NCBI GenBank assembly: GCA_004431415.1
Contig: QPMI01000633.1
Location: forward strand, 79,497 to 143,496
Reading direction: 5' to 3'
DNA length: 64,000 nt
From: Cyanophora paradoxa CCMP329
Lineage: Eukaryota > Plantae > Glaucophyta
Made by a program: the position numbers and the translations under genes. Below, one piece after another: positions 1 through 53,927 of the stretch. Each line of letters opens with the position of its first letter. Positions within the stretch are counted from its first letter, which is position 1. The notes under the pieces were generated by a model. The model was not told where the DNA came from, made no database searches, and saw nothing but the letters and a program-made list of their open reading frames with translations.

Positions 1-1724
1 TCAACACGTAATTTATCATCTTGTTGGGCAATTTTGCGGAATATTCCATGTCCGCATTCATCCATGTGATCGACAACGATAGCTACTTTGGTTTGCTTTG
101 AGATTCGCCGGTGGAGGTTACAGTTTCGGCATGCCTTCCCGATGAAATTGCCGGATTGGTGACAATGATCGCGAACGGGGAAGTTTTCGTGGGTGAATCT
201 CTGAGAGCAAATATAACAGTTTTTTGTTATCTTGTATTCCGCCTTCTGATCGTCTGTGAGTGGATGCATCGAAATATTTCTAAACAGCGTCTCAACTATT
301 TCGGGTCTGATATCTTGGAGAGTAGCAAAGAGAGAACCGAGAGGATCGGCTCCCTCAAAATGGTATGCTCTCACTTCTTCTCCCATTACCACTCTCAGTG
401 AAACCGCTTTAATCTCACGTTTACTCCTCTGAGCATCGATAGCAACCGAATGATCTTCGACTTTGACATAACAGATCACAGGAAGCCAAACGGTTTTACG
501 TAGATGTTGCAGACCGAATTCAATTGCGCTTCCCGCTTTTGGGCATTTGCCTTTGCTCTCCCTCCAATCAATGCAGCGATTCGCTTCAACATGCAGGTCT
601 AATTTCTCCTGAGTTCTGAAACGCGATAAGCAGGTTTCACAGTAATAAATGCGACCATCACATGCTTTATCAAACGTAGTTTTCAGAAGACGACTAAAAG
701 ACATGATAGTAATGTAGTGTCCCCGATCATCTTCGGTGTTTTCAATAAGTAAAAGGTTAATTTTGGTCTTTCGTCTTGGATTACTTGATTGATGGAGAGG
801 ATAGAAACACTCTTTGGCGTTATCGGCTCCGTAAATGTTAATGGATAAATCGGGGTTTAGTTCTTCGAAACGATCGATTACCTCAGCATCACATGCAATG
901 GGAAACTGAATACCATCGAAATTGAGTTCATTTAACCATCGGCGGTATTGGCTTGGTTCATTGCTCTTGTGTTTGTTAATGTCCTTTCGATGCAGGTAAG
1001 CCAAAATCGCATACTTGAAGCAATCTTGACCGTCGATATTCTTAACGTTCACCGTTGCCTTCTTGGATGCAATCCATTCGGGAGTTGCGAAATAGCATCC
1101 TCCCACAGGTGCATAAGACATGATAATGCCTCTTAAAATTTCGATCTTCTCCAAACGGTAACTATCCACTTGCGTCATTTCCTCTTGCATTTTCTGTAAC
1201 GCTTTGCGAACTTCTGTGTCTATGTTGCGGGATCGGGTAATTACGAAATAATCGCTGTAAATGTATTTGGTGATATAGATGCGCGGATTACCTACTTTGG
1301 TAAATTTGCAAACGAAAGTCAGACGGACTTTAACCGCTCTCAGTTGATCTAAGCGGGTTCTAATGCGTTGCGGTAGACTTGGTGCGATTCTTTCGAGGAA
1401 TTCGATAGCATCCACGACAACTTCATTTCGGGCGCGATAGGTTAACCACGAATACGCTTGATTCATCGCTTGTCCATCTTCAATGTCCGGTTCAATTGCT
1501 CCTAATCTCTGTCCTTCACCCATAAATTCCTCCATTCGTTGCATGCGATCGTAGAGGTCATTTGCAATCTCAGTGAGTTGTCCTAATCGCGGTCGTCTAT
1601 CTAAGATGGTGGCTTCTCTATCGAATTCCGCTTCGGTTATCTCACCGGTAACTAAGAGAGTTCCTAACAATCCAAGTATTTCATTTTTCTTTTCTTTGAT
1701 CAGTCTGTTGGTTTGGCGGGGCAT
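1..1724 (-). CDS. Polinton-type protein-primed DNA polymerase B, N-terminal part (runs off window; not in the ORF track)
   Basis: Hand translation is open from ATG 1724 (MPRQTNRLIKEKKNEILGLLG): PEWIASKKATVNVKNIDGQDCFKYAILAYLH, C2H2-like YCETCL..H, EndoVII-like RDHCHQSGNFIGKACRNCNL; colinear with the PLV-B gene that carries the polymerase motifs. Confidence 0.9.
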   Translation of the reverse strand, partial: MPRQTNRLIKEKKNEILGLLGTLLVTGEITEAEFDREATILDRRPRLGQLTEIANDLYDRMQRMEEFMGEGQRLGAIEPDIEDGQAMNQAYSWLTYRARNEVVVDAIEFLERIAPSLPQRIRTRLDQLRAVKVRLTFVCKFTKVGNPRIYITKYIYSDYFVITRSRNIDTEVRKALQKMQEEMTQVDSYRLEKIEILRGIIMSYAPVGGCYFATPEWIASKKATVNVKNIDGQDCFKYAILAYLHRKDINKHKSNEPSQYRRWLNELNFDGIQFPIACDAEVIDRFEELNPDLSINIYGADNAKECFYPLHQSSNPRRKTKINLLLIENTEDDRGHYITIMSFSRLLKTTFDKACDGRIYYCETCLSRFRTQEKLDLHVEANRCIDWRESKGKCPKAGSAIEFGLQHLRKTVWLPVICYVKVEDHSVAIDAQRSKREIKAVSLRVVMGEEVRAYHFEGADPLGSLFATLQDIRPEIVETLFRNISMHPLTDDQKAEYKITKNCYICSQRFTHENFPVRDHCHQSGNFIGKACRNCNLHRRISKQTKVAIVVDHMDECGHGIFRKIAQQDDKLRV

Positions 1725-2358: not shown

Positions 2359-4755
2359 TTACTCATCATCATCATCAAACTCAACAACAGTAGGTGTCTT
2401 ATCAATCTTCTTCACACCCTTGTAGCCACGATCATAACCAGTTCCAACCTTCTTGCGAACTGCATTCTTGTCATATTTCGCTCCAAGCAAACCCATCACA
2501 GTTTTAATGCGATTTGCAGACATATTCAGTCTCAGTTGCTTGATCTCTTGCTCAACCATCTTGGAAGTTACAGAGTCGGATGAATTTCGAGTGAATTCGA
2601 ACACTGATCTGATCAGAGACATTTCATCACCTGCATCTTCCCGGAATTCATTAATATCCTCAGCAACCTTCCCAGAAACCACGAATTTCTGAGATTTGTA
2701 GGCTTCAAACACCATCCATTCGAATGCTCTAATTATCTCAGGACTTTTTAGCAGAACACTCTTGATATCTTCCGAAGCCAATCTCACACAAGGAGAGTTC
2801 ATTTCCTCAACAGTCTTTTGATCAACGAATTTGTGGGGGTGCTTGAACAATACCATGGTTTGAAGGGTATCAGATGGGGAAATGGGTGGAACATCATTCA
2901 TGATCATCCACAAACGACTTTGGAGGCGAATATTGACCTCATTTTCATATAGAACACGCATGCATTGAACATCACCACCAGATTCCTTCTTTTTGATCAT
3001 TGCACCATTCACCTTAATATTTGTGTTTGAGACATCGAATTTCATCTCTTGGGTGAATGTCAGACGACGAAATTCACAAGGTTTCATCCACTTTAACTTG
3101 GAGGTATCGTTGTCATCTGAGTTCTTATTCAGCAAGAATGCCTCCCCACTGATGGTGTGCACATATCCACTTCCCCAGGTATTTTCATTGAGATTCACAT
3201 AAACCCCCTTACCACAATTGCGTTCACCAATTGATAATCCCCACTGTTTATCTTCGTATTTCCCAGCCATTGCACGAGCTGTAAATTCCAGAGCAGAAGA
3301 AATCGAATCATTTCCGAAAACGGGTTCCAGAATCTTGTCGAAAAGGGTTTGAATATCCGAATCAGATGGCTTGATCACATATCCATCTTTGTCAACAAGA
3401 AGATCCCTCTCGATTCGAGTGGTAGAATAGATCTTGTCACATTTGTCCCATGGTGTGAGCTTCTTTGTCTCGAAATCATACACACCATTTCGGTAGCACA
3501 ATTTTCCAATGGTCGATGACCACATAATATCATTGTAGAACACACGATTATTGGGCAGAAATGCTTTGGCTGTCTTGATAATTCGATCTGCCCCAGTAAG
3601 ATTGGTAGAATATGGCTTCAAGTTACCTTTGTCATCCTCCTTGAACATATAGCACTCCATGCACAATTTCAACATTATATTGTAGACCATTGTGGAATCA
3701 TCAGTCCACAGAAAATCGTCTGTCTGAGCGAATATACGACCATCAGACATGACCACTCGCCCCTCAATCGATTTAACAAATGTGAGAGCAGCTTCACGAT
3801 CATCCCGAACAATATTAAGAGGAGAGGATACACTTTTTGAATTTGTTGGAATCGTAAATCCTTGATCCATTGGTTTAATCATCAACTCAATCTTGTAGCC
3901 AGTGACATTCTCAATATACTTGGTAGCATCACAGAGAATATTGTGGAGACGAGTTTCGGGTAATTCAGGGGCTTTTTCAACCATGCAACCATCATAAACG
4001 AGAACGCCAACTTTTACAGCAAGTGAGGTTAAATACTGACAAAGCGCAATCAGACATTCATTCTCCAATTTGCAGAGAACCATATTAATGGTTGAACCAA
4101 AGATGTTATACTCCTTCTTTCGCTTGCAAATCAAGAAGAAGTTGTGGTTTTCGGGCATGCTTGCAATTTGAGCGTGAATTCCTGTGATTTCGTTCTTAAC
4201 TGCTTTGAACTTGGGGTGGTTCAGCAGTTCCTTGTTATCAATTGAGCCCCCACCCCCGTTTACAACAGAAAGAAACGCTTTCTTGATATCTTCGCGAGAA
4301 AGTCCCGATTTCTTGCTTATATCAGCAATGATACTATCACGATTGTCGACATAATCAGTAAGACCCTCACAAACGATTTCATTTTTTTCACAATACTGAA
4401 TGAGAAGTGTGGGATGCGCATTTTTCATATCGATATCGTAGTAGAAATCGCGAGCAAGAGTGTGGCGGAATTCTCTGGGCATTCCTTGCATTGATGCTTG
4501 CTTCTTCTTGATGTGTTCAAGATTCACGAAATAACGACCAGTATTATGCTTGCATTGATGATATTTAACTTCAATGCGCCCATCTCGCTTCAAATCCTTG
4601 AAATAACGTTGGAGAAGGGTGAGAGTAGCAGTTGCATCAATATCAGGTCGATACTCCAAAGTCTCGAAATTATCAATCAGGTATTTGAGAGTGGAGCGAT
4701 CCACCTTCTCAAAGAGAGCGATTTTAAGTCCGTTCGGTTGCTGAGAGTTGAACAT
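2359..4755 (-). CDS. TVpol (PolA-like primase-polymerase) fused to D5-like SF3 helicase
   Basis: YYDIDMKNAHPTLL, KKAFLSVVNGG and VLVYDGCMV (PolA-like motifs A/B/C); NGVYDF D5_N-like; Walker A GERNCGKG; C-terminal RGYKGVK winged-helix-like end. Confidence 0.88.
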   Translation of the reverse strand: MFNSQQPNGLKIALFEKVDRSTLKYLIDNFETLEYRPDIDATATLTLLQRYFKDLKRDGRIEVKYHQCKHNTGRYFVNLEHIKKKQASMQGMPREFRHTLARDFYYDIDMKNAHPTLLIQYCEKNEIVCEGLTDYVDNRDSIIADISKKSGLSREDIKKAFLSVVNGGGGSIDNKELLNHPKFKAVKNEITGIHAQIASMPENHNFFLICKRKKEYNIFGSTINMVLCKLENECLIALCQYLTSLAVKVGVLVYDGCMVEKAPELPETRLHNILCDATKYIENVTGYKIELMIKPMDQGFTIPTNSKSVSSPLNIVRDDREAALTFVKSIEGRVVMSDGRIFAQTDDFLWTDDSTMVYNIMLKLCMECYMFKEDDKGNLKPYSTNLTGADRIIKTAKAFLPNNRVFYNDIMWSSTIGKLCYRNGVYDFETKKLTPWDKCDKIYSTTRIERDLLVDKDGYVIKPSDSDIQTLFDKILEPVFGNDSISSALEFTARAMAGKYEDKQWGLSIGERNCGKGVYVNLNENTWGSGYVHTISGEAFLLNKNSDDNDTSKLKWMKPCEFRRLTFTQEMKFDVSNTNIKVNGAMIKKKESGGDVQCMRVLYENEVNIRLQSRLWMIMNDVPPISPSDTLQTMVLFKHPHKFVDQKTVEEMNSPCVRLASEDIKSVLLKSPEIIRAFEWMVFEAYKSQKFVVSGKVAEDINEFREDAGDEMSLIRSVFEFTRNSSDSVTSKMVEQEIKQLRLNMSANRIKTVMGLLGAKYDKNAVRKKVGTGYDRGYKGVKKIDKTPTVVEFDDDDE

Positions 4756-6404: not shown

Positions 6405-7187
6405 TTACAGTCCCCTCTTATATCGCATCAACTTATTCGTGTGAACAGCGCTTTTAATCTCTTTCGGCGCTTCCTCCTTCTCAGGCGGTTTTAATTCATC
6501 TTCTTTCTTTTTTGGCTTTCTGTGAAACCGAGGAAACTTAAAGTCTTTTACGAGTTCCGCTTTATCAACATAGTATTCCACCGAATAATTCGCAGAACTC
6601 CAAATGAGAAACTGATAGGAGTGAACGTATTCCTCAAACATCTTATAGAAAGCGTCTTTATCCCGCATGATATTGTATTCTTCTTCAATGGCTTCCAGTT
6701 CTTTGCGATTGGCGGCACTTAGGAACATTGCATAATCCGAGTTGACGCGAATGGTTGAAGAAACCTTACGCAATTTCTGAGTTATGCAAATAATCGAAAT
6801 TTTCGAATGGCGCCCACGACTGTAAAGAGAACCAATAATTTTATCGCGGGTTAGATCGACTATCTCATTATCTATAAGATCATCAAGAACGACACACAAT
6901 TGGTTAACAGGTTCTCCTTTCTCAATTTTCTCTTGTCGTTCATCGAGAAGTTTAGCGATGTAAGGCGCATCCCATTTACCAAGTTGTAATGTAGCGACAT
7001 TATCCCAAAAATGATTGAAACTCGTCCCACTTACAACAAGAATAACATCTAACTTTTTCGCATCGTGAAGTTGTTTTAGCCAATACTTCACCGCTTCTGA
7101 TTTACCAGTCGCAGATTTTCCAATTGCTAAGACACGGAATGGGGGTGTTATCATTTCAGCGGCATTAAACTCGGGAACGTCTGACAT
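6405..7187 (-). CDS. A32/FtsK-like genome packaging ATPase
   Basis: Walker A GKSATGKS, Walker B VVLDD, RGRH..ISIICITQ; likely start MSDVPEF at 7187. Confidence 0.93.
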   Translation of the reverse strand: MSDVPEFNAAEMITPPFRVLAIGKSATGKSEAVKYWLKQLHDAKKLDVILVVSGTSFNHFWDNVATLQLGKWDAPYIAKLLDERQEKIEKGEPVNQLCVVLDDLIDNEIVDLTRDKIIGSLYSRGRHSKISIICITQKLRKVSSTIRVNSDYAMFLSAANRKELEAIEEEYNIMRDKDAFYKMFEEYVHSYQFLIWSSANYSVEYYVDKAELVKDFKFPRFHRKPKKKEDELKPPEKEEAPKEIKSAVHTNKLMRYKRGL

Positions 7188-7248
7188 GGCGTAATAGATT
7201 CTTCTTAATAAAGACAGATAAAAATAACGAAATCTTACTGATAATGGT

Positions 7249-8646
7249 TTAGAGATTAATGCGGCGAATTCCGTCCTTATCGACAATAATGAACGAATGC
7301 ATGAGAGCGCGAACGTTAACAGTAATTGTGCGATCAGCAGGAAGATACAGAGTGAGGAACGATGACGACGAGTTCGTGAGATCAACATATCCAGATTGGG
7401 CAATGTTGCGAATCGCCTTCTCACCATCAACAGCGAATGGGAATCCGGTAAGGACGTAACGGTTTGCTTCCTTGTCCATATTCGAGCATTTGAAGGCATC
7501 GGCGATGAGTTCCGCACCTTTGAGTAGCGGGATTGGCTCAGTTGAATACAGACGCTGTCCGTTAATCTCACAGGTCATCGTGATATCCTTCGCATTCGCA
7601 AGCGTTTTAAGGACGCTGTGAGAACCGTTAGAAGAATCGACACCATCAGCATCACGAACAGAGACAAGAAGAGCATAAACCAGACCAGAGATTTGGCTAA
7701 GATTGATTCGGTTGGGTTGAGTGTTACCTTTCGCAGCAACACCAATAGCATCAACGAAACCGATATCGAGAGCAGGAATAGCCATCCCCGTGGTCTTAAC
7801 TTTCTCAATAACAGTAGCGAACAGTTCATCAGAAACGTTAATAGCATGCATGTAGAGACGAGGAGACTTAATGGAGATGTAATGGGTCATTGGTGGAACA
7901 GTTCCAGCAACTTCGAACCCAGTAATACCGCCAGTGGTAATGTTTTGACCGACATTAGCAAGAGTTACACCAGTAGCGCTTCCGAGACCGTCATTTGCGG
8001 TTTGATCCGCAGCGGTTGTCACAACTGGAAGAGCGCGACCGCCATAAGAAGTTTCAAGATATCCCTTGTTAGCTTCTTTGAACCAAACAGTGATAACAGC
8101 TTCGCCTGAGAGAGCGCCAAGTGGTAGGTAATGGTTCAACCACGGCACCGGAATTTCAACGAAGAAAGCGCCACCTTTACGGTTGGTTCCGTGAGCGGGA
8201 ATTCCATGAAGCATTCCCATTGAACGCTTCTTTTTCGCCAGCTGATCCTCAGAATAGTAGACCAGTGGGAAAATCGCAAGAAAATCGCTTGGGACGTGGT
8301 AAGTATACGAGCCATACGAGAATTCAAGACGCTCTACAAGCGCACCAACGGGACGGGTGTAACCATTTCGCACAAGGTCGTCATCACCAGTAAAAGCGGT
8401 TAGTTCGGGAAGATCAAAAGCGAGTTCGATTTTACCAACAAAGTTGTAGCGGGGAAGTTTGAAAGAAACGCGTTGACCAACGTTGTTGTCATAGGTTGTC
8501 GAGGGACTAACGGTTACCAGAACGGGTTTCGTCTTCGATTCGAGACCAAGCATAAGCGAGTTATCGAGGAAGAACGCTTTGGCTTCCTCGGGCGTTGTTA
8601 GCGCCTCTTTCAGAGAAAGACGTTGAAGGGTCGAGGTAACATCCAT
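7249..8646 (-). CDS. Major capsid protein (double jelly-roll, PLV-type)
   Basis: 465 aa, beta-rich (SFKLPRYNFVGKIELAFDLPEL, FFVEIPVPWL..YLPL); lies between ATPase and minor capsid genes. Confidence 0.8.
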   Translation of the reverse strand: MDVTSTLQRLSLKEALTTPEEAKAFFLDNSLMLGLESKTKPVLVTVSPSTTYDNNVGQRVSFKLPRYNFVGKIELAFDLPELTAFTGDDDLVRNGYTRPVGALVERLEFSYGSYTYHVPSDFLAIFPLVYYSEDQLAKKKRSMGMLHGIPAHGTNRKGGAFFVEIPVPWLNHYLPLGALSGEAVITVWFKEANKGYLETSYGGRALPVVTTAADQTANDGLGSATGVTLANVGQNITTGGITGFEVAGTVPPMTHYISIKSPRLYMHAINVSDELFATVIEKVKTTGMAIPALDIGFVDAIGVAAKGNTQPNRINLSQISGLVYALLVSVRDADGVDSSNGSHSVLKTLANAKDITMTCEINGQRLYSTEPIPLLKGAELIADAFKCSNMDKEANRYVLTGFPFAVDGEKAIRNIAQSGYVDLTNSSSSFLTLYLPADRTITVNVRALMHSFIIVDKDGIRRINL

Positions 8647-8700
8647 TCTGTTTTGCTTTTACTATACAAAAATATAAAAATTCTGTGAATGATCCTTAAT

Positions 8701-9705: not shown

Positions 9706-9733
9706 CTTCTTTTATCTATAACCATATAATAAA

Positions 9734-11237: not shown

Positions 11238-11460
11238 GACACTGAATTACGTCTGAGAAAATCTTTTACCCGTTTTACTCTATACTATCGCTTCTTCCTT
11301 AAATCATTTTGGGTTGCCCACAAGCATCATTTTTTGAAAGTAAGACCTCCGTAATATCTAAATTGATAGATGAGAGAATAACAGAGATCTTTTCAGGGTT
11401 GGAGAAAGCGGAGAAGCAGATAGCAGCGCGATTTCCGAGTTAATCACACTGTTAATGGTT

Positions 11461-11845
11461 TGGTAGGCACTTTATATTTCTCAGATAATGAAAGTGAATA
11501 TATCATATCTCTATGATTCATAGATGTCTTACTGAATATCGTTTGGTAGGCACTTTTTAATTGAAGTTAGGCACTTTTAATTGACGTTAGGCACTTTTAA
11601 TTGACGTTAGGCACTTAGGCACCTTTTCTGGAAACTCTCTATAAAAAATAAAATCAACGTTTTGAAAAACACAAGTTGATGTATTTGGGACTTCTTTTTA
11701 ATTCTCGATAAGGAAGTGCCTAACGCGCCTACGCTGCCTACCGCGATTAAAAAAAGTGCCTACTTCGATTAACCCGCTCCATTTCAGTAGCCCGTTTTAT
11801 ATCTAAATGATATCCGCCGATCACGATAAAAAAGTGCCTAACCGT
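11461..11845. repeat. Subterminal inverted copy of origin-like module A with extra iterons
   Basis: ~11559-11724 is a near-identical reverse complement of ~2116-2280; several TAGGCAC / GTGCCTA copies. Confidence 0.88.
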
Positions 11846-11860
11846 TTTCATCTCAGCGAA

Positions 11861-12273
11861 ATCTCATCGATTGTTTAATTGGACATAATGCTGTAACCAT
11901 CTCTTCCAACAAAATTACATCGATTAATTCAATTGAGATTGATACACCTAAGATACAATGTTTTTACAGTAAAAAACAGAATCCAATCTTATCAATTGTT
12001 TAATTGGACATAATGCAACTCTGGGGTCATTTTCGATACAGTAAAAAGCTTACCCGAATCTCATCGATTGTTTAATTGGACCTGATGCAGTAACCATCTC
12101 TTCCAACAAAATACGCCGCAATCTCAACGATTGTTTAATTGGACATAATGCAGTAACGAGTGAATTATTTTCATCCGATATTTCATCGATTGTTTAATTG
12201 GACATAATGCAGTAACCATCTCTTCCAACAAAATATGCCGCAATCTCATCGATTGTTTAATTGGACATAATGC
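11861..12273 (+). repeat. Subterminal array of six 31-bp repeats (ATCTCATCGATTGTTTAATTGGACATAATGC) with 28-94 bp spacers
   Basis: Copies at 11861, 11986, 12058, 12121, 12180, 12243. Confidence 0.9.
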
Positions 12274-12624
12274 AACTCTGTGTGAATTTTTGCGTTTTAC
12301 GATAGAATGGGCGGTGGACTACTTCAATCGTGATTATATCATAAATTTATGTTCCTTCAATCGAGATTATATCGAATTTGCATAAAATACATATTAATCG
12401 CGTTTATATCAATCGCAAAATACGTATTTTACATTTAAATACAAATTAATCGCGTTTATATCATTGAATCAATTGAGAAATACGTAATTTATCAAAACTT
12501 TATATAAATTTCATAAAATCATAATTTAATTGATATTATACCAATTAATTTAATCGAATTTATTTAAATTTAATTGATTTTATTAAACATTTTGATTTAT
12601 TTTTTAAATATTTTCGATTAATTT

Positions 12625-12709
12625 ACACATAAAGAAATACAAATTTAAATCCAGGAGCGAAGCGCGAAGCGCGAAGCGGAGGGATTTAAATTTGTATTTC
12701 TTTATGTGT
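12625..12709 (+). repeat. Terminal hairpin of PLV-A: 28-bp perfect stem, 29-nt loop with (GCGAAGC)x3
   Basis: 12625-12652 ACACATAAAGAAATACAAATTTAAATCC is the exact reverse complement of 12682-12709. Confidence 0.95.
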
Positions 12710-44638: not shown

Positions 44639-44733
44639 ACACATATGTATAAACTTATTTAAATCCCTCGTTCATCTCGATCGCTTCGCGATCTCGATTC
44701 ACTCAGGATTTAAATAAGTTTATACATATGTGT
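44639..44733 (-). repeat. Terminal hairpin of PLV-B: 28-bp perfect stem, 39-nt loop containing GATCGC-GAA-GCGATC on the minus strand
   Basis: 44639-44666 ACACATATGTATAAACTTATTTAAATCC is the exact reverse complement of 44706-44733. Confidence 0.95.
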
Positions 44734-45006
44734 CAAAATTAATACTAAAATACGTATTTATCGATTAAATTCTTTAACTTTTTATGCAAACTTTGTATAA
44801 ATTAATGCAAACTTTGTATTAAAAAATGAAAAACGCGTTTAACTTTATGCATATTTACGATTGCATCAATTGATCTTATATCGATTGATTATGTTATTTG
44901 TCGATTACATATAAAACTGCGATTAATTTGCATTAAACTACTTAAAGATCGATATAATCGCGATTAAATTGCATAAATTCGCATAAACTCGATATATCTC
45001 TCTTGT

Positions 45007-45308
45007 ATTGAAGTAGACCACCGCCCATTCTGTATCGAAAAACGCAAAAAGTGTCACAGAGTTGCATTGTGTCCAATTGAACAATCGATGAGATTGCTGA
45101 TTTGCATTTTTGCACCCAAAAACTGTCACAGAGTTGCATTATCTCCAATTAAACAATCGATTATAATGGGGATGGGCACTTTTGCACCCAAAAAGTGACA
45201 CATAGTTGCATGGTCTCCAATTAAACAATCGATGAGATTGCGGATGTATATTTTAGATCGAAAAGTGTCACAGAGGTGCATGGTCTCCAATTGAACAATC
45301 GATTAGAT
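45007..45308 (-). repeat. Conserved 25-bp box plus four copies of the same 31-bp subterminal repeat
   Basis: Box 45007-45031 matches reverse complement of 12304-12328 at 24/25; repeats at 45064, 45136, 45208, 45278. Confidence 0.9.
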
Positions 45309-45420
45309 TGCATATGTTCTATAAAACAGAATAATTGAGATCAAGTGTGACAGGTAGTATTCAAATGATATTCAGTAAGAGATATTTTTGTTTTTGAGAC
45401 AAGCAGTAAGAGGGGTAGAA

Positions 45421-45890
45421 TGTCTGTGACGCCTGTGACGGCTGTGACGCCTGTTTTCAGAAGTCTGTCATTTTTGAAAATTTTAAAAAGTTTGAAAATA
45501 GGCGTCACAGGCGTCACAGGCGTCACACACAATTAAATTAGGTGTCACAGCGAAATTGCAGACCATTTCCAGTAAGACAACTTCGCATTTTCAAAAAGGT
45601 TGATTAATGGATAGTGTTTTGGAGGTGTCAGAGGTGTCACAAGACGGATTTCAGTAAGACAAGAATATATTCTCGAAAATCTCAGTAAGAGAAAGAGATT
45701 CCATTTTTAATTGGGTGTGACGCCTGTGACGGCTGTGACGGCTGTTTTCAGAAGTATGTAGATTTTTGAAATTTTAAAAAGTTTGAAAGTAGGCGTCACA
45801 GGCGTCACAGGCGTCACAGTCAATTAAAGAGGCGTCACAGTCAATTAAAAAGTTGTCACACCCGATTATCTGACCATTTTCAGTAAGACC
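45421..45890. repeat. Two subterminal copies of origin-like module B: (TGTGACGCC)x3 - AT core - (GGCGTCACA)x3+
   Basis: ~45425-45550 and ~45716-45860, both near-identical to 61840-61972. Confidence 0.88.
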
Positions 45891-45919
45891 ATCTGAAATT
45901 CTGAATTTCTCAGTGTCAA

Positions 45920-46321
45920 CTAACTCGGAAATCGCAATACTCTATGTTTCTCCAATTTCTCCAACCCTGAAAACACACCTGTTATTCTCTCATCTATCTC
46001 ATGAGATACTCTCGTGGTTTTTCTCTCTGCTTCTAATCCACAACTGAATATATCAATCGCCAGCATACCTTCATTTGAGTAACAATGAGCAGTGCAGTGG
46101 CTCTCATCCAGCAGAAGAACCATTGCAAAACCAGGAGGAGAAATACCACCATCGAAAATCTCGCAATGCTTGTGAACTACTCGAATACCTTGCTCTTGAA
46201 TAATAGTTTGTAAGAACTGCATTAACCACCTGGTTGTTGTCTTCAAGTCCTCCACTCCTATTGCTAATTGGTTTTTGAACTTGTAATCCAGCATTACATG
46301 GAAGCCTCGATGAGTATTCAT
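45920..46321 (-). CDS. speD: Prokaryotic-type S-adenosylmethionine decarboxylase proenzyme (SpeD/SpeH family)
   Basis: G.HVMLD, PPGFAMVLLLDESHCTAHCYSNEGMLAIDIFSCG with the ES self-cleavage site. Confidence 0.88.
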   Translation of the reverse strand: MNTHRGFHVMLDYKFKNQLAIGVEDLKTTTRWLMQFLQTIIQEQGIRVVHKHCEIFDGGISPPGFAMVLLLDESHCTAHCYSNEGMLAIDIFSCGLEAERKTTRVSHEIDERITGVFSGLEKLEKHRVLRFPS

Positions 46322-46807: not shown

Positions 46808-47641
46808 CTATGGAGCAGTATCCTGCCCGAAAATGGGGAAGTAGCGATTTGTGCCGTAATATTCTGCATATGTATTCTGTTTTGCAATAGCATCGGTTCT
46901 CTCAGCATAGAGAATGCATTTGTAGATACCAAATCTGGTGGCTCTCACCAAGAATTGGTAATCTTCAAGACCGAAATTCACTCCATGATAAGCAATTCCG
47001 AAATTATCATATGGAGTGATCACAACTGCAATATTTGGGGTTCCACCCTCTACTTGACAGACAGCATAAACATCTGGTGGAATATCCACGACCACCTTGT
47101 AGTGGTCACCAATCTCAACAAGAGAATCTACTACTGATGTCTGTTCGTTTACCACAATTGGGAATATCTTAATAATATATGGTGCATTCATACTGGGGAC
47201 ATAGGTGCGAATTCTGGTGTTGGGATCAATGGGATTGGGTTGATCATTTACGAAAAGAGGCGCACCAACAGCTCCACCAATCCGAAGACCATCACCAATA
47301 TATGCTCCCCCCGTTTTGCAGTTAATAGCTCCCGACCGAGATTCAAAAGAATAAGTAGAAAGAGGATCACCATAACTGTCTGGGTCTCCATAATGGGCAG
47401 AAAAGTTCGCATTTGTGACAAGGAGTTTCGTTGTCTTAACTATACCATTATTTTTATCACATCTGAGTTCCTGCAATCTCAGTTTATGGGTGGAACCAAA
47501 GGTATTCATTGTAGGTTGTACTTCTGTGGATTGGAGACCTTCGACATCATCAAAGGTAGCATGCTGTAAAACGTGATTTGCAGGTGCTGCTAATGATAGC
47601 TGGGGTGTAATAATTCGCTCTACTGGTGCTGGGGCAGCCAT
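46808..47641 (-). CDS. Putative fibre/spike paralog 4
   Basis: Shared N-domain ELRCDKNNGIVKTTKLLVTN...TGGAYIGDG. Confidence 0.7.
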   Translation of the reverse strand: MAAPAPVERIITPQLSLAAPANHVLQHATFDDVEGLQSTEVQPTMNTFGSTHKLRLQELRCDKNNGIVKTTKLLVTNANFSAHYGDPDSYGDPLSTYSFESRSGAINCKTGGAYIGDGLRIGGAVGAPLFVNDQPNPIDPNTRIRTYVPSMNAPYIIKIFPIVVNEQTSVVDSLVEIGDHYKVVVDIPPDVYAVCQVEGGTPNIAVVITPYDNFGIAYHGVNFGLEDYQFLVRATRFGIYKCILYAERTDAIAKQNTYAEYYGTNRYFPIFGQDTAP

Positions 47642-47664
47642 TTTATATTAAACAGATATATCTT

Positions 47665-48519
47665 TTATGGGGTGGGGTCGTCTATAATATCTGGCTCCGC
47701 ATAGAATCCGGTTGTGAATATATCTGCAACATTTACCCCACGAAGTGCTGAAACAGCTGCTATATCTGTTCTCAGTCCCATAATCATAGTATTGTAAACT
47801 CCAACCTCAGTGACAAACAAATCATAAGTAAATGTCAGATTGTTATAAACACAATATCCCCGACCGAAATGATTTGATGCTTGAACAAAGAATAGGTAAT
47901 TGTGACCCTGTTGGTTATTATTTGCTCTGCACATTGAGAGCATTGCTGTGGGAAGAGGAATATTCCTTCTCACTCGATCAGTTCCTGTAATGGAAACCAA
48001 TTCTGAATTTTCAAGAGTGACAGATGATGCAATATAGAAATGCAGAAAAGGTTGCTGTGCAACTGGGGTATAGAACCGAATTCGTTGTGGGTTCTCTACA
48101 TTTTGTTCAAGAGTATCTGGGACATCATTATACGAAATTGAGGATGAAAGCTGACCTGAAACTCTGCAACCACCACCAATAAATGCTCCTCCTGATCTCA
48201 CAGTTACAGCAGCAGTGTTTTTATCATAATCAAGGGCTTTCAGATCAACACTGTAAGCATCAGGACCTCCATTGGTAGGTTGGAAGAAATTCGCATTTGA
48301 GACAAGGAGTCGAGTTGTTTTAACCACACCCGAATTCTTGTCTGCTCTCAGTTCTTTAACTCGAATAATCGAATTTTTATCAAAGGAGTTACCATTGGAG
48401 TTGGGTCTCTCTGTGGATTCTAAACCACGAACCTCATCATTAACTTCATGCTGGCGAAAGTGCATAGCAGGGGATCCAAGGGAATATATTGGAAGTTGAA
48501 CTCGATTATATTCACCCAT
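47665..48519 (-). CDS. Putative fibre/spike paralog 3
   Basis: KELRADKNSGVVKTTRLLVSN...SGGAFIGGG; likely start MGEYNR at 48519. Confidence 0.7.
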   Translation of the reverse strand: MGEYNRVQLPIYSLGSPAMHFRQHEVNDEVRGLESTERPNSNGNSFDKNSIIRVKELRADKNSGVVKTTRLLVSNANFFQPTNGGPDAYSVDLKALDYDKNTAAVTVRSGGAFIGGGCRVSGQLSSSISYNDVPDTLEQNVENPQRIRFYTPVAQQPFLHFYIASSVTLENSELVSITGTDRVRRNIPLPTAMLSMCRANNNQQGHNYLFFVQASNHFGRGYCVYNNLTFTYDLFVTEVGVYNTMIMGLRTDIAAVSALRGVNVADIFTTGFYAEPDIIDDPTP

Positions 48520-48557
48520 TGCTTCTTTTACTAAGAAGGAAAGAAAAATAATGTTCA

Positions 48558-48821
48558 CTACTCTTCTGTGACATTGTTATACTCGATGCCTTTCTTTACA
48601 GTTCCCCTTTGGAATGCCTGTAACACAATGGCTTCCTTTGAGGTTGGTATTTGAACTCCTGATGAGATGCAAGATTGAATTTCTTTCTGAACAATCTCAT
48701 CAATTGCAATTCTTGCCCTGTTATGAACAACATTATCAATCCAATCCTGAACAGAGGCAGCACAGTATTCCATTCCCAACTTCTCAGTATCTGATAGAAC
48801 TACTTGGTAGATATTTGACAT
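48558..48821 (-). CDS. Small phage-like protein, possible fibre chaperone
   Basis: LSDTEK.GMEY.A.SVQDWIDN..HNRARIAIDEIV resembles small ORFs recalled next to phage C1q-type fibre genes. Confidence 0.6.
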   Translation of the reverse strand: MSNIYQVVLSDTEKLGMEYCAASVQDWIDNVVHNRARIAIDEIVQKEIQSCISSGVQIPTSKEAIVLQAFQRGTVKKGIEYNNVTEE

Positions 48822-48842
48822 TCCTACTTAATAGAAAGAAAA

Positions 48843-49868
48843 TTATGTGATACTTAGAAGTTCAGCTGTAAACATGGTTCGACTTGAATAACCACCTGTG
48901 GTTCCTGTGACAAGTGTTACATATTCTCCCGCAGCAAGATTGAGTATAACATTAATATATAGAGGTTTTACACCAATTGTAGTTGAAGATCCAGAGGTGA
49001 AGATGGATATACCCCCAGGGTTAGTGTCATTCACTTGCATTGTGAGACTTACAGCAGATGAGGTTGTTGATTGAGAGTTTGCTGTAAGTCTGTAATGACC
49101 AGCGACAGGGGCTGTAAATCTTCCATTACCTGTATTGAATGCACCTCTGTTATCAATAAAAACGGTTGTCCAATTGATTAGAACAGCAGCACTTGTTGCA
49201 GTGTGTATGTAACCCAGTTGCGCACAGAATCGAGGTTGAAAATCATACTTTAAATAACAACCTGTATTCAGGGTCAAACTATTGGCTTCCAGGGTCGCCA
49301 TGACATCACTATTGCGTTTAAAAACCAGATTTGCGCTTGATCCTGTGTCTATTTCAGGTGTAACTATTTTGGTAGTTGCTGTGACAATAGATTGCTGTGC
49401 ACCAGGAACATAAACACCTCCATTGGCTGTTACCAAATCATTAAATGTAGTTGTTCCTGTTACAGTGATTTGTTCAGTTGTGAGATTCCCATTTATTCTT
49501 GCTCCATCTCCAATGTAGGCACCTCCACTTTTTACCACAAGAGCAGAGTTATTACTTGTGTTATCAAAAGTAACAATCTTGGGTGTGGTGAACCCTCCCA
49601 CATCATCATAAATTGCAGAATCCGAAACGATTTGACCTGATTGAACTTGGTTCTTATTCGAAACTATGAGACCTGTGGTTCTCACCTTGCCCCCATTTCG
49701 ATCACATCGAATTTCTTTGCATCTTATCACAGAGTTTTGCGAAAATGAATCTGCTCCTGTTGTTTCTGTGCAAATAAAACCAGGGGTAGCATCTGTTACA
49801 GCATGGTTAAGTTGATGTATTTTTGGGGCGGCATAACAGAAAACAGGGACTGCTATTTGAGTAGCCAT
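48843..49868 (-). CDS. Fibre paralog 2 with C-terminal C1q-like head
   Basis: Shared N-domain; FNTGNGRFTAPVAGHYRLT, LNLAAGEYVTL. Confidence 0.8.
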   Translation of the reverse strand: MATQIAVPVFCYAAPKIHQLNHAVTDATPGFICTETTGADSFSQNSVIRCKEIRCDRNGGKVRTTGLIVSNKNQVQSGQIVSDSAIYDDVGGFTTPKIVTFDNTSNNSALVVKSGGAYIGDGARINGNLTTEQITVTGTTTFNDLVTANGGVYVPGAQQSIVTATTKIVTPEIDTGSSANLVFKRNSDVMATLEANSLTLNTGCYLKYDFQPRFCAQLGYIHTATSAAVLINWTTVFIDNRGAFNTGNGRFTAPVAGHYRLTANSQSTTSSAVSLTMQVNDTNPGGISIFTSGSSTTIGVKPLYINVILNLAAGEYVTLVTGTTGGYSSRTMFTAELLSIT

Positions 49869-49890
49869 TCTTTATATTACATAGACAATA

Positions 49891-50964
49891 TTATATGGTG
49901 CTTACCAGATAACAACCCAAGAAAGATCGTGTGTCCAGTGTGATAGTAACACCAGATGAGTTCACCACTGAAACATAGTCCCCAGTATTTAGAGTTATTA
50001 ATGTTTCATATGTGATTGCTGGCGAGACATATCCATTATGTGAACAACTAAATTCGTAATTGGATGCAACTCCATTTATGTGTAGCCGAAAGACAGTTAC
50101 ATAAGAAGTCTGATTATCTGTTCTCATAGTTGTAAAGAAAAACCGGTAAACACCTGCAACAGGTGCAGTAAATCGTGAGGATCCAAAGTTGCCTTCATTG
50201 TTGATAAGATAAGTGCCGTAAGTAGGTGGTGAAATGAAGACAGATTGACCATTTGAACATGTTGAAGTTCCTGTCTGATTAGGAACCTGTCTTGCAACAC
50301 ACAGTCGTGGGCAATAAGTTCTTTTCAAATAGCAAGTAGGAGAAAGTGTAAATGATTTTATCTCTGTCTGTGCAACTGTTGTTTTTTCAAGAGTGACAAT
50401 TGTGTTACCATTTCGTTTGTAGGTCGAATTCGAATCTGTCCCATTACCAATTTCGGGTGCTTGAACTCTCAGAAATGCTTGAAGAGTCCCATAAATTATG
50501 TTTCCTAAAAGACCAGAGTTAATATTCATCAACTGAGTGAAAACACTTGTCCCATTCACAGTCAACTGATTTGCTGTGACAGTCCCCACCACAATTGCCC
50601 CATCACCAATGTAGGCTCCTCCACTTCTGACTACAAGAGCCGAATTATTTATTGTGTTATCGAAATTAACTATCTTTGCTGTGCTGAATCCACCCACATT
50701 ATCATATACTGCTGAATCGGGGACTACTTGACCTGCTTGAACTTGATTTTTATTCGAGATAATAATGCCTGTGGTTCTAATCTTGCCTCCATTTCGATCA
50801 CATCGAATTTCTTTGAATCTGAGTATATTATTCTCTGTGAAAGAGGTATTACTTGATGTTTCAGTGCAGATATTCCCAGGTGTTGAATCAACTACTCCAT
50901 GAGAGGTGCTGTGCAGTGATTTTGCTGCAAGTTCGTAGTTTGGGATTTCTAATAGAGAGGTCAT
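49891..50964 (-). CDS. Fibre paralog 1 with C-terminal C1q-like head
   Basis: Shared N-domain; SRFTAPVAGVYRFFF, ITLNTGDYVSV. Confidence 0.8.
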   Translation of the reverse strand: MTSLLEIPNYELAAKSLHSTSHGVVDSTPGNICTETSSNTSFTENNILRFKEIRCDRNGGKIRTTGIIISNKNQVQAGQVVPDSAVYDNVGGFSTAKIVNFDNTINNSALVVRSGGAYIGDGAIVVGTVTANQLTVNGTSVFTQLMNINSGLLGNIIYGTLQAFLRVQAPEIGNGTDSNSTYKRNGNTIVTLEKTTVAQTEIKSFTLSPTCYLKRTYCPRLCVARQVPNQTGTSTCSNGQSVFISPPTYGTYLINNEGNFGSSRFTAPVAGVYRFFFTTMRTDNQTSYVTVFRLHINGVASNYEFSCSHNGYVSPAITYETLITLNTGDYVSVVNSSGVTITLDTRSFLGCYLVSTI

Positions 50965-50988
50965 CTTTATAATAGTAAAAGATTGAAA

Positions 50989-53313
50989 TCAAGCAGTTGC
51001 TATCCAATGCACTGTAACCATGAAGGTTTGGGGTTGTATGTTTATATATCCTGCTGCCCAAACAACAAGATTTATGGTGGTTGAGGTGGTTGAGTTGCTT
51101 GATATTCCCATTTTGTAGTCGATCTCTACATTAGTTGCAGGCAGTCCCTCCAATGTTGCAACAACAGATGGGGTTGATGCAAAAGCAGGACTCCAACTTA
51201 ATGTAATGGTATGATTTTGCCTTGCTGAACTACCACCAATTTGGGGATTGTTTATGACGAAATTGTATGTCCCCTTCCTTATTCCAGTAGTAGTGTAATT
51301 ATCAAAAACATATTGGGGCATCAACTTGGTAACAGCAGCATTATTGCGAGGATCCCTGACCCACATTTCTCTTGCATATGCATTACCGCGAACAAGAAGT
51401 GTTTTATCCTGGTAGTATGATATTGTGTTAGTAGAAAGAGTTGAATTGTGGAAATTCCAAATCACAGGAGGATTGGGCATAATGTAGGGGTCGTAGTCAA
51501 GAAAGTAACCTGATCCAACAAGAAGGTTTGCATTTGCTGTGATGTTATTGGCTGTAAAGGGATCAAGAGTTGGTCTATTGGTCAAATCGAGGTAGTTGCC
51601 TGAGAAAATCGCTGGTTTGTTATAAATATCTGTATTCCAATCATGAGTGTGTGCAAAATCTGTAATCTCCGCCTTAGTGTGATTGTGTGCAAAATCTGTA
51701 ATCTCTGCCTTCGTATGGGTGTGACCAACATATGCAACATTTCCAAGATCTGTTATCTCTGATTTAACATGAGTGTGAGCGAAATTCGTAATATCTGCTC
51801 TGGTGTGGGTGTGTGCAAAATCTGTTATCTGGGATTTTGTGTGAGTGTGAGTATTGAAATCTGTGATCTCTGCTCTTGTGTGGGTGTGTGCTCTATTATT
51901 AAGATCAAGGAAGCTTCCAGAAAATGCAACAGGGTGTAGATTTGCAGCTGTTGGTTTGTTTAGGAGATCATTATAGTCTCCTGTAAAAGCGATTATTTTC
52001 AGTTCACCCCTTCCCACATAATCAGAAGGGAGATCAATCTTAATGGGCATAATAGCTGGATCATCTGGGATCTCATATTCACCTCCTGGGTGAACCACAG
52101 GAAAGGTTTGATTGCTTTCAGTATGGACAAAGAAGTTGCATGCTGTTACTGTTCCATCAATAATCCCTCCTGTGAGAGGAAGGTAATCCCCTGTCACACC
52201 AATATTAATACCTGCAATAATTGTATTCAGTTCTGTTTCATCTATGTAGTTCTGGGCTTGCAGGTAATCCTCTGTTACCACTCTGGATATGGTCTCATTG
52301 TGAATATTCTTTGCTGCTGCCCTCTGATTGATTTCTAAGAGACCCTCACCCACTCCACCATTATAATTCGTTTTTATCCATGAGATTTCGCATCTCTTGT
52401 AGTCATCTCGATTTCCAATGAGAGCATTGGGTAACAATCTTTCTCTGGTGAATATTAATTTGGGTCTTGAACTATCTAAATCACTCACATCAGTTACATT
52501 AATTTGGATTGCTGCATCTTTGTCATCATAGTTTGCTGGATCAGATGGTAGAGAGATCAATCCTCCTGTCATTGGGATGTCATCTGCATAGTAACTGGTT
52601 AAATAGATACCTGGTTTGGTGTCCATCAAACCGAAATTTCCGCCTGCTGCAATTATCTGCATCCTTGTAGGGGGTCTGATGTATAATTCACCCTGCATTT
52701 TGGTTCCTGCATCTATTCCTTTGAGATTCAGGTAATATTCATCTAATCTTAATCTCTCTGGTATGATATTACTTTGGTAGAGAGTAACACCATGTAAGGT
52801 GTCGAAATCATCACCTGCTGATGCGAATTTTGGTTGTTCATCTATTTCGCTCCATTTATGTCTGTGATCTTCTGGTGGAAACTCTTCTGGTTTTCCATCA
52901 ATATCACCCCAGTCATGCCTGTGATCCTCTGGTGGGAATTTGTCTGGTTTACCTAATATCTCATCCCAGTCATGGTTGTGATCCTCTGGTGGAAATCTGG
53001 CTGGTTTATTGTTGATCTGCTCCCAATCTGGGAAGAATTCCCAAATCTCTGGGCGAAATCCATCTGGTAATAATTCTTCATGGGGTTCATATGGTTGCTC
53101 ATAATCAACAACTGGTGGTTGGAGACCATCTGCTAAATATTCCTCATGGGGTTCATAATTCTGTTCATACTCATACTCTTGTGGATCTAAACCATCTGGT
53201 AGATACTCTTCCTCATTGGGGTCATACTGATCATATTCATACTCTTGTGGGTCGAAACCATCTGGTAAATATTCTTCCTCATCTGGGACGAATTGGTATT
53301 CATCAAGCTCCAA
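50989..53313 (-). CDS. Long tail-fibre-like protein with acidic repeats, HxH repeats and a lectin/gp53-like C-terminus (may begin upstream at 53878 via frameshifts)
   Basis: EEYLPDG repeats; FPPEDHxHDW x3; HTHTKAEITDF-type repeats; FASTPSVVAT...VHWIAT. Confidence 0.75.
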   Translation of the reverse strand: MELDEYQFVPDEEEYLPDGFDPQEYEYDQYDPNEEEYLPDGLDPQEYEYEQNYEPHEEYLADGLQPPVVDYEQPYEPHEELLPDGFRPEIWEFFPDWEQINNKPARFPPEDHNHDWDEILGKPDKFPPEDHRHDWGDIDGKPEEFPPEDHRHKWSEIDEQPKFASAGDDFDTLHGVTLYQSNIIPERLRLDEYYLNLKGIDAGTKMQGELYIRPPTRMQIIAAGGNFGLMDTKPGIYLTSYYADDIPMTGGLISLPSDPANYDDKDAAIQINVTDVSDLDSSRPKLIFTRERLLPNALIGNRDDYKRCEISWIKTNYNGGVGEGLLEINQRAAAKNIHNETISRVVTEDYLQAQNYIDETELNTIIAGINIGVTGDYLPLTGGIIDGTVTACNFFVHTESNQTFPVVHPGGEYEIPDDPAIMPIKIDLPSDYVGRGELKIIAFTGDYNDLLNKPTAANLHPVAFSGSFLDLNNRAHTHTRAEITDFNTHTHTKSQITDFAHTHTRADITNFAHTHVKSEITDLGNVAYVGHTHTKAEITDFAHNHTKAEITDFAHTHDWNTDIYNKPAIFSGNYLDLTNRPTLDPFTANNITANANLLVGSGYFLDYDPYIMPNPPVIWNFHNSTLSTNTISYYQDKTLLVRGNAYAREMWVRDPRNNAAVTKLMPQYVFDNYTTTGIRKGTYNFVINNPQIGGSSARQNHTITLSWSPAFASTPSVVATLEGLPATNVEIDYKMGISSNSTTSTTINLVVWAAGYINIQPQTFMVTVHWIATA

Positions 53314-53345
53314 AATATCGATTTCAGGAGGTAAATATTACTTGA

Positions 53346-53878: not shown

Positions 53879-53927
53879 CCCAATTTACTCTACTTATAGA
53901 GATTTATTAAATTTGAGTTAAGTAAAG

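What the first reader, a model, noticed from the sequence alone, without database searches (positions are those of the whole stretch)
12625..12709. Compensatorily diverged, potentially self-priming terminal hairpins with GCGAAGC mini-hairpin loops (partner at 44639-44733)
Seen: both elements end exactly at a 28-bp perfect stem. The stems share ACACATA and ATTTAAATCC but differ through the middle (AAGAAATACAA vs TGTATAAACTT), yet each is perfectly self-complementary, so structure and length are conserved rather than sequence. On the strand whose 3' end is terminal, both loops contain GCGAAGC (x3 in A; GATCGC-GAA-GCGATC in B). Known: d(GCGAAGC) is an unusually stable GNA-loop mini-hairpin, and parvoviruses self-prime from 3' hairpins, whereas Polinton ends are modelled as protein-primed TIRs. 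Inference: the folded 3' end offers a paired 3'-OH pointing inward, giving a hairpin telomere/primer or an integrase substrate. I do not recall this being described for Polinton-like viruses.
Basis: partly seen in the sequence, partly recalled or inferred. Interest (0 to 1): 0.9.

Follow-up and report, generated by a model that had tools for sequence, protein, structure and literature searches.

The report
Purine-zippered hairpin ends of algal viruses
Two virus-like elements inserted in a microbial eukaryote's genome each end in a perfect 28-base-pair palindrome whose middle is predicted to zip up through unusual G·A pairs on one strand only, likely forming a folded DNA tip used to start copying the virus; simpler tips of this kind were reported in 2026.

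Summary
Confirmed. Two Polinton-like viruses (double jelly-roll capsid, A32 ATPase, retroviral-type integrase, pPolB plus a primase-helicase) end in perfect 28-bp stems, 21/28 identical between them, with all 7 differences mirrored. Short-read contigs of 4 runs place element B's terminus at the first stem base and show a third arm variant, so this is no fold-back artefact. On the 3'-terminal strand B forms three tandem sheared G·A pairs, all in pyrimidine-GA-purine context, capped by GAA (16/500,000 in a null). A shows a weaker version. So the 3' end likely folds as DNA. Self-priming is inferred, not shown (about 50%). The pPolB keeps a terminal-protein fold and vOTU dyad under purifying selection, and Streptomyces telomeres use the same GNA hairpins with protein priming (rival, 30%). 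The concept is not new: a July 2026 preprint reports terminal palindromes and hairpin priming for Halocafeteria virophages and PLVs, and this scan noted similar tips in two other genomes. New here: the purine-zippered, strand-specific cap and its coexistence with a pPolB whose priming loop is five residues short. TSDs, opposite ends and flip/flop were untestable.

The parts
12625..12652 (+). Element A inner arm (28 bp): box ACACATA, 11-nt spacer, box ATTTAAATCC
12653..12681 (+). Element A cap (29 nt, no T): three tandem GCGAAGC. Symmetric fold gives 6 Watson-Crick pairs, 7 purine-purine positions in (GGA)2- and (GAA)2-type motifs and a GAA triloop; alternatively three mini-hairpins
12682..12709 (+). 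Element A outer arm; its last base is the likely element terminus (G+C jump; no read test)
44639..44666 (-). Element B outer arm; 44639 is the terminus (host-flank contigs stop matching at 44638 in 4 of 4 runs)
44667..44705 (-). Element B cap (39 nt): on the - strand 11 Watson-Crick pairs, one T·G, three tandem GA/GA sheared pairs (6 of 6 GA steps in pyrimidine-GA-purine context), GAA triloop
44706..44733 (-). Element B inner arm; exact match in a 94-nt contig of run X6 (44706-44799, 0 differences)
11365..12624 (.). Element A terminal (TIR-like) region: AT-rich stretch and about 60-70-nt subterminal repeats, homologous in inverted orientation to B's terminal region (70% over 417 nt; 83% over 88 nt)
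44734..45998 (.). Element B terminal (TIR-like) region with 72-nt repeats and two palindromic repeats (45416-45550, 45707-45840)
3..1724 (-). Element A pPolB, N-terminal half (cut by the window edge): LF/PAD-like terminal-protein fold (res 88-204) with a shortened priming loop, vOTU (212-345, C235/H336), degenerate exonuclease, EndoVII-like zinc finger
2359..4755 (-). Element A primase/polymerase-SF3 helicase, likely TVpol (PolA-like motif by eye; Atlas lead DNA_pol_A at 0.82 only; D5_N E 0.043)
6405..7499 (-). A32-type packaging ATPase
   Evidence: E 1.9e-10
7249..8646 (-). [quoted passage not shown]
   Evidence: PBCV-1 MCP, E 2e-12; nearest homolog 57-60% is a named EukProt Cyanophora paradoxa model
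56662..58068 (-). Element B RVE-type integrase, with 1-nt frameshifts
   Evidence: full-length homolog P0002, rve E 0.015, below the curated cut-off
58198..61451 (-). Element B pPolB, palm motifs A, B and C present. 22 one-base deletions, 1 insertion and 0 in-frame stops in 548 codons compared with A: likely long-read errors
62042..64000 (-). Element B D5-like primase-helicase (5' end outside the window)
46808..55428 (.). Element B fibre and accessory genes (C1q-like, PTR plus H-lectin, patatin, discoidin)
   Evidence: same domain sets reported for glaucophyte PLVs in PMC12220804

Best explanation
The palindromes are the termini of two integrated Polinton-like viruses, and their 3'-terminal strand is predicted to fold into a 41-46-bp rod (28 perfect pairs, a G·A-zippered cap, a GAA loop) whose paired 3' end likely primes DNA synthesis, so that the free genome would have hairpin-closed ends. 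Shown: position at the terminus (B by reads, A by composition), perfect and concerted arms, a cap that pairs non-canonically on one strand only, and the same polarity at two ends that are opposite ends by gene order. Inferred: after excision or strand displacement the 3' end snaps back and is extended by the element's polymerase (pPolB or TVpol) or a host or helper polymerase. The two arms are then the two strands of a single duplex, which explains why every change is mirrored. On integration the RVE integrase would bind the two boxes, which lie one helical turn apart, and nick after TGTGT. It would join that 3'-OH to host DNA, and host fill-in would unfold the hairpin into the palindrome seen here.
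For: 7 of 7 arm differences mirrored; stem fixed at 28 bp and spacer at 11 nt. A third inner-arm variant keeps both boxes and the 11-nt spacer (loose end in X10, shorter forms in X1 and X17). A 94-nt contig spans B's whole hairpin with 11 differences and no gaps, consistent with 5+5+1, though the positions were not listed. Cap of B: 17 of 18 positions paired on the 3'-terminal strand against 11 on the other; 0 of 200,000 shuffles reach it. Three tandem sheared motifs occur in 16 of 500,000 draws under a loop-composition null and 86 of 500,000 permutations. Tandem pyrimidine-GA-purine steps form sheared G·A pairs in DNA hairpins (PMC10085684, passages). GCGAAGC melts at 76.5 C and resists exonuclease (PMC13037366, passages). 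The predicted priming loop of the terminal-protein domain is about 5 residues shorter than in 6 of 6 homologs and lacks the Gly/Pro said to flank all linking residues. Each element also has a primase-helicase, the replicase class linked to terminal palindromes in Halocafeteria.
Against: No free genome, read-through hairpin or priming was observed. The pPolB keeps the terminal-protein fold, a Ser/Tyr at the loop and the vOTU Cys/His, and pN is far below pS in all four regions (terminal-protein region 0.19 vs 0.78). One of the 6 homologs also lacks Gly in the loop. The ACACA terminus would suit slide-back protein priming (established knowledge). GNA sheared hairpins occur on protein-primed Streptomyces 3' overhangs. 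A's non-canonical signal is modest (6,221 of 500,000 under loop composition; 28,736 of 500,000 by permutation), and the motif tests were defined after seeing the sequences. No nickase that would resolve closed hairpins during replication was identified in the visible parts. Polarity rests on 2 copies.
Confidence: 0.5

Rival explanations
1. Protein-primed ends with a folded 3' overhang, working like Streptomyces/Rhodococcus invertron telomeres. The primase-helicase replicates from an internal origin and leaves 3' overhangs. These fold into the nuclease-resistant G·A rod, which recreates a duplex origin locally. The terminal-protein domain of pPolB primes end patching, and the inner arm templates repair of the outer arm.
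For: Terminal-protein (LF/PAD, Z 7.4, rmsd 3.1, 97 residues) and vOTU (Z 6.7) folds present, catalytic C235/H336 invariant, purifying selection. Two replicases per element. Streptomyces overhangs fold into GNA-loop hairpins with sheared pairs, the 3' end pairs back, and fold-back extension repairs truncated ends (PMC5449611, passages). Rhodococcus telomeres carry the central GCTXCGC motif, the complement of GCGNAGC (PMC7276702, passages). Terminal ACACA dinucleotide repeat.
Against: The priming loop is shortened and lacks Gly/Pro in both copies. A perfect 28-bp fold-back with a flush 3'-OH would be readily extended by a displacement polymerase, which is a dead end for a purely protein-primed replicon unless blocked (inference). 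No Tap-like protein is known here (not searched).
Confidence: 0.3
2. A duplex protein-binding palindrome (two integrase or origin-binding sites head to head, possibly a cruciform), kept symmetric by template-switch mutation, with no single-strand priming role.
For: The conservation pattern is two fixed boxes one helical turn apart, typical of protein contacts. Template switching can create and repair perfect stems in single events (bioRxiv 10.1101/2021.04.15.439925, abstract). The Halocafeteria authors also offer accidental annealing as an alternative.
Against: It does not explain why the non-Watson-Crick positions in the caps are 13 of 14 purine-purine on one strand and arranged as sheared motifs. 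Template switching would make Watson-Crick, not G·A, pairs.
Confidence: 0.15
3. Sequencing or assembly fold-back artefact.
For: Element B's region is rich in uncorrected one-base deletions, so the assembly there is unpolished.
Against: Contigs from 4 runs cover the hairpin, one spans it whole and one matches the inner arm exactly. The two hairpins differ in sequence yet share length, boxes and polarity. The middles are imperfect and structured.
Confidence: 0.02

Closest known systems
Terminal palindromes of endogenous virophage subtypes 1, 2, 5, 6 and PLV subtype 4 of Halocafeteria seosinensis (bioRxiv 10.64898/2026.07.28.741278; sections 7 and 10, abstract and passages read; supplement not seen)
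   Same: Palindrome at the TIR tip of RVE-integrated small DNA viruses of a protist; hairpin-priming model proposed; non-pPolB replicases present.
   Different: There a 52-nt palindrome (subtype 5), found with a gap limit of 10 nt, and linked preferentially to non-pPolB elements. Here 85-95 nt with a 29-39-nt cap of sheared purine pairs that is strand-specific, in elements that also keep a TP-vOTU pPolB under selection. The read text mentions no G·A caps.
Polintons/PLVs with TP-vOTU-pPolB (bioRxiv 10.1101/2024.03.18.585575; sections 6 and 7 and passages read)
   Same: DJR capsid, A32 ATPase, RVE integrase, pPolB with LF/PAD-like TP and vOTU dyad.
   Different: Ends are modelled as protein-primed TIRs (0 hits for 'hairpin' in that text). 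Here the linking loop is shorter and lacks Gly/Pro, the exonuclease motif I Asp is Lys, and a second replicase is present.
Streptomyces/Rhodococcus invertron telomeres (PMC5449611, PMC7276702; passages read)
   Same: 3' strand folds back on itself; GNA loops closed by sheared G·A; GCGNAGC/GCTXCGC motif; fold-back repair of the tip.
   Different: Bacterial, several short palindromes, Tap/Tpg priming, non-integrating. No homology is claimed: a convergent design.
Parvovirus/AAV rolling-hairpin telomeres (established knowledge; PMC11575299 seen only as a search listing)
   Same: Terminal palindrome with a paired 3'-OH pointing inward.
   Different: ssDNA genome and an HUH Rep nickase, usually with flip/flop isomers. 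No HUH gene was found in the visible parts; both copies have the same polarity.
Covalently closed telomeres of poxviruses, phage N15 and Ectocarpus EVEc (PMC13236599, passages read; poxvirus from established knowledge)
   Same: Incompletely paired hairpin ends; palindrome in the opened form.
   Different: Resolved by telomere resolvase or Holliday-junction resolvase at the palindrome centre. Here the palindrome is at an integration junction and no resolvase gene was seen.

Membership tests
Polinton-like virus (Polisuviricotina) | [quoted passage not shown] | tested here: met
   Model pLDDT 53 only, but Foldseek to PBCV-1 MCP E 2e-12, 121 matches at E<=0.001
Polinton-like virus (Polisuviricotina) | A32-type packaging ATPase | tested here: met
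   Pfam Pox_A32 E 1.9e-10
Polinton-like virus (Polisuviricotina) | Integrase (RVE or tyrosine recombinase) | tested here: inconclusive
   B ORF matches P0002 (71% over 85% of the query); P0002 hits rve at E 0.015, below the curated cut-off; D-D-E motifs by eye; A's integrase would lie outside the window
Polinton-like virus (Polisuviricotina) | Own replicase (pPolB, PolA/TVpol or AEP-D5 helicase) | tested here: met
   pPolB in both, D5-like helicase in B, TVpol-like in A
Polinton-like virus (Polisuviricotina) | TIRs at both ends of one element and a 5-6-bp TSD | not testable with these tools
   Only one end of each element is in the window and no whole genome is held. The two ends are homologous in inverted orientation and are opposite ends by gene order
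Halocafeteria-type palindrome-ended virophages/PLVs | Palindrome at the very tip of the TIR | tested here: met
   B: host flank stops at 44638 in 4 of 4 runs; A: G+C jump only
Halocafeteria-type palindrome-ended virophages/PLVs | Adjacent TSD | not testable with these tools
   Partner ends are outside the window
Halocafeteria-type palindrome-ended virophages/PLVs | Preferential link to non-pPolB replicases | tested here: inconclusive
   Both elements carry a non-pPolB primase-helicase and a conserved pPolB
Protein-primed Polinton ends | PRD1-like terminal-protein domain followed by an active vOTU | tested here: met
   LF/PAD Z 7.4 and OTU Z 6.7 (both below 8, trusted because they agree in order with the published architecture); Foldseek best hits are Y-family polymerases at E 4e-3; C235/H336 invariant in 7 of 7
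Protein-primed Polinton ends | Ser/Tyr linking residue in an unstructured loop with a nearby Gly or Pro | tested here: inconclusive
   Ser188/Tyr189 kept in A and B; loop 4 residues, about 5 shorter than in 6 of 6 homologs; no Gly/Pro in 179-196
Protein-primed Polinton ends | Protein covalently bound to 5' ends | not testable with these tools
   Needs free viral DNA
Parvovirus-type rolling hairpin replicon | HUH Rep/NS1 nickase | tested here: inconclusive
   No HUH family among 29 ORFs scanned, but both elements are cut by the window
Parvovirus-type rolling hairpin replicon | Flip and flop isomers of the hairpin | tested here: inconclusive
   2 of 2 copies have the same polarity; no strand-changing joint in contigs, but contigs break at the arms
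Actinobacterial invertron telomere | 3' strand palindromes with GNA loops and sheared purine pairs | tested here: met
   against PMC5449611
Actinobacterial invertron telomere | Tap and Tpg proteins | not tested
   No search for Tap/Tpg was run; the element's TP is of the unrelated PRD1-like fold, so only 'works like' is considered

The most novel reading that the evidence does not exclude
A lineage of Polinton-like viruses has switched from protein priming to DNA self-priming: the terminal-protein domain of its pPolB has lost the priming loop and serves again as a little-finger DNA clamp, the genome is packaged with hairpin-closed ends of a single polarity zipped by sheared G·A pairs, and a retroviral-type integrase opens these hairpins 28 bp from the cap to integrate them.
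Probability: 0.2. Interest if true: 0.85.

Novelty: new variant of a known kind. Interest (0 to 1): 0.52.

Why it matters
How Polinton-like viruses and virophages replicate and integrate their ends is untested, and a 2026 preprint asks for exactly this kind of characterisation. These ends give a defined 85-95-nt substrate with a strand-specific, mutable signature (the G·A steps) and a candidate polymerase with an altered priming loop, so hairpin priming against protein priming can be decided in vitro. They also show that palindrome screens limited to short gaps would miss such ends. If folding is confirmed, eukaryotic DNA viruses and actinobacterial linear replicons have converged on the same GNA/sheared-pair end design.

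Tried and rejected
No whole genome is held, so other copies, opposite ends and TSDs could not be collected. Full end pattern in IMG/VR viral contigs: 0 matches. Relatives by MCP, MCP alignment and integrase in viral contigs: none confirmed (1, 155 and 9 candidate stretches). A relaxed loop-centred pattern in JGI metagenomes gave 5 hits, all rejected: 3 intergenic palindromic repeats among genes that look like those of giant viruses, 1 bacterial region, 1 short repeat contig, none with the ACACATA box or sheared cap (ORFs listed for 4 of the 5). Hairpin B against GenBank phages: no match. No Rfam family or tRNA in the window. No further arm-like site or solo palindrome in the window at up to 3 substitutions. 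The position-by-position view of hairpin variants, and any read test of A's junction, were not obtained. One search listed only 40 of 73 difference rows, 24 of 106 loose ends and 32 of 1,241 pieces, and its depths are not copy numbers. The window's own flank-to-hairpin junction was not among the listed pieces. The supplement of PMC12220804 gave no TSD data under 'Cyanophora' (2 tRNA rows). The 798-aa helicase has no PDB sequence match. An RNA role (terminator, ncRNA) was considered unlikely: the motif's stability is DNA-specific (the RNA octamer melts at 39 C). Literature searches for prior description: polinton+hairpin+TIR (30 papers), polinton-like+palindrom+termini (4), virophage+endogenous+hairpin+integrase+palindrom (5), GCGAAGC+hairpin (93, 25 listed), Cyanophora+polinton (5), mavirus/hairpin/genome ends (138, 20 listed). 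Of those opened, only the Halocafeteria preprint describes such ends. bioRxiv supplements were closed and may hold more.

Full report
Observation. The window holds two A+T-rich elements (about 40% G+C; 1-12709 and 44639-64000) separated by 32 kb of host DNA at 56-80% G+C. Each ends in a perfect 28-bp stem, the two longest of 23 perfect stems of 12 bp or more in the window. Fold z-scores are -11.6 to -13.8 with 0 of 200 shuffles as stable; shuffled terminal 400-mers reach at most 13 bp. The arms of A and B differ at 7 of 28 positions, all in an 11-nt spacer between two invariant boxes, and each difference is mirrored. GCGAAGC lies on the strand whose 3' end is terminal in both.

Terminus and reality. 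Contigs of 4 public runs (X1, X6, X10, X17; 4 of the 20 listed runs that hold part of B) were laid on 44200-45700. In all 4, a 239-nt host-flank contig (a paralog, 5 differences) matches up to 44638 and its last 4 letters do not continue into the stem, so B begins at the first stem base. Hundreds of variant contigs lie on the element side (217-410 laid per run), showing a multi-copy family, though depth is not copy number. X6 holds the inner arm and 66 interior bases exactly. X10 holds a 94-nt contig over 44640-44733 with 11 differences and no gap. A loose end in X10, with shorter forms in X1 and X17, shows a third inner arm with both boxes and another 11-nt spacer, 5 positions from B; 5+5+1 would give the 11 differences, but the positions were not listed, so this is only consistent with mirrored change. 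No strand-changing joint was reported, a weak test of flip/flop. A's junction rests on composition alone. TSDs could not be tested.

What the elements are. A encodes a double jelly-roll MCP, an A32 ATPase, a likely TVpol-SF3 helicase (lead only) and a pPolB. B encodes fibres, patatin, discoidin, an RVE-type integrase, a pPolB and a D5-like helicase. The nearest MCP (57-60%) is a named Cyanophora paradoxa gene model, and the PTR/H-lectin and discoidin/patatin genes match what PMC12220804 reports for glaucophyte PLVs (passages), so the host is likely such an alga. With pPolB on the same strand, A's hairpin is on the helicase/capsid side and B's on the integrase/fibre side. The two terminal regions are homologous in inverted orientation, so the hairpin likely caps both ends of this architecture.

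The caps. Written on the 3'-terminal strand and folded symmetrically, B's 39-nt middle gives 11 Watson-Crick pairs, one T·G pair, three tandem GA/GA pairs and a GAA triloop. All 6 GA steps of those pairs are pyrimidine-GA-purine, the context known to form sheared G·A pairs (PMC10085684, passages). 17 of 18 positions pair against 11 on the other strand, and 0 of 200,000 shuffles reach 17. Holding the Watson-Crick pairs fixed, three sheared motifs arise in 0, 16 and 86 of 500,000 draws under three nulls. A's 29-nt middle gives 6 Watson-Crick pairs and 7 purine-purine positions in (GGA)2- and (GAA)2-type motifs (motif names recalled) with a GAA loop. Its significance is weaker: 3 of 200,000 shuffles, but 432, 6,221 and 28,736 of 500,000 in the conditional nulls. 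It may instead form three mini-hairpins. These tests were designed after seeing the sequences. GCGAAGC melts at 76.5 C and resists exonuclease (PMC13037366, passages). The complementary strands would carry pyrimidine mismatches. I infer selection on a single-stranded DNA fold of the 3' end.

The polymerase. Modelling of A's pPolB residues 1-400 (pLDDT 72.6, 7 sequences) gives an LF/PAD-like domain at 88-204 (Z 7.4) and an OTU domain at 212-345 (Z 6.7). This is the terminal protein-vOTU architecture of polintons (bioRxiv 10.1101/2024.03.18.585575, sections 6-7). The vOTU Cys and His are invariant in 7 of 7 sequences. Between A and B, pN is 0.07-0.19 against pS 0.63-0.78 in four regions. B's breaks are 22 one-base deletions and 1 insertion with no in-frame stop in 548 codons, likely read errors. 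So protein-priming machinery is present and maintained. But the predicted linking loop has 4 residues, about 5 fewer than in 6 of 6 homologs, and no Gly or Pro, while keeping Ser and Tyr; exonuclease motif I has Lys for Asp. This is a hint, not proof, of altered priming.

Mechanism. Best (0.5): the 3' end snaps back and primes, giving hairpin-closed free genomes. The arms are then two strands of one duplex, hence the mirrored changes, and integrase nicks after TGTGT, with host fill-in laying the hairpin out as a palindrome. Rival (0.3): internal replication by the primase-helicase with terminal-protein-primed end patching on a folded overhang, as in Streptomyces, whose overhangs use GNA sheared hairpins and fold-back repair (PMC5449611, passages); Rhodococcus telomeres carry the complement of GCGNAGC (PMC7276702, passages). 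Rival (0.15): a duplex binding palindrome symmetrised by template switching (abstract), which leaves the G·A caps unexplained. Artefact (0.02).

Comparison and novelty. This scan's notes list similar tips in two other genomes and a subterminal hairpin in Giardia Polintons (unchecked). I found no description of long, strand-specific, sheared-pair caps, nor of such ends beside a conserved TP-vOTU pPolB, in the papers opened from searches; subscription papers and preprint supplements were not visible. No relatives with ends were found in viral or metagenome contigs, so generality rests on 2 full hairpins and 1 partial variant. Verdict: real, a new variant of a recently described kind, interest 0.52.

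Noticed in passing
window 2108-2294 vs 11546-11732; 45416-45840 vs 61831-61990: In both elements a copy of a subterminal repeat recurs between the pPolB and the primase-helicase gene (A: 187-nt inverted pair, 94%; B: palindromic 134-nt repeat, 94% direct). This brackets the pPolB/integrase module from the helicase/capsid module, as described for two-replicase polisuviruses in bioRxiv 10.64898/2026.10.13.758929 (section 13). The A and B repeats are unrelated in sequence.
   Followed up: partly
window 45416-45550, 45707-45840, 61831-61964: These internal repeats are themselves long imperfect palindromes built of 9-nt TGTGACGCC units; candidate origins or promoters.
   Followed up: no
window 55900-56233: Cluster of GTCACCGGTGAC palindromic units followed by an 11-nt tandem array, downstream of the integrase.
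   Followed up: no
window 45920-46321: S-adenosylmethionine decarboxylase-like gene next to B's terminal region (Pfam E 5.6e-11).
   Followed up: no
window 53928-55428: Patatin-like phospholipase and discoidin domains in consecutive frames, probably one gene split by one-base errors.
   Followed up: no
window 44200-44638: Element B sits in a host repeat: the flank is covered by paralogous contigs in all four runs.
   Followed up: partly
window 56300-61800: Dense one-base deletions without nonsense changes indicate an unpolished long-read assembly inside element B; apparent pseudogenes there should not be taken as decay.
   Followed up: yes
L001 2980-3080, L002 2990-3070, L004 2927-3132: Family of long intergenic palindromic repeats containing GCGAAGC, with stems up to 84 bp, in freshwater-type metagenome contigs whose genes look like those of giant viruses; unrelated to the window's ends.
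   Followed up: no
window 8701-9705 and 9734-10636: Two divergent ORFs after the MCP that resemble each other at their termini; likely minor capsid proteins (not tested).
   Followed up: no
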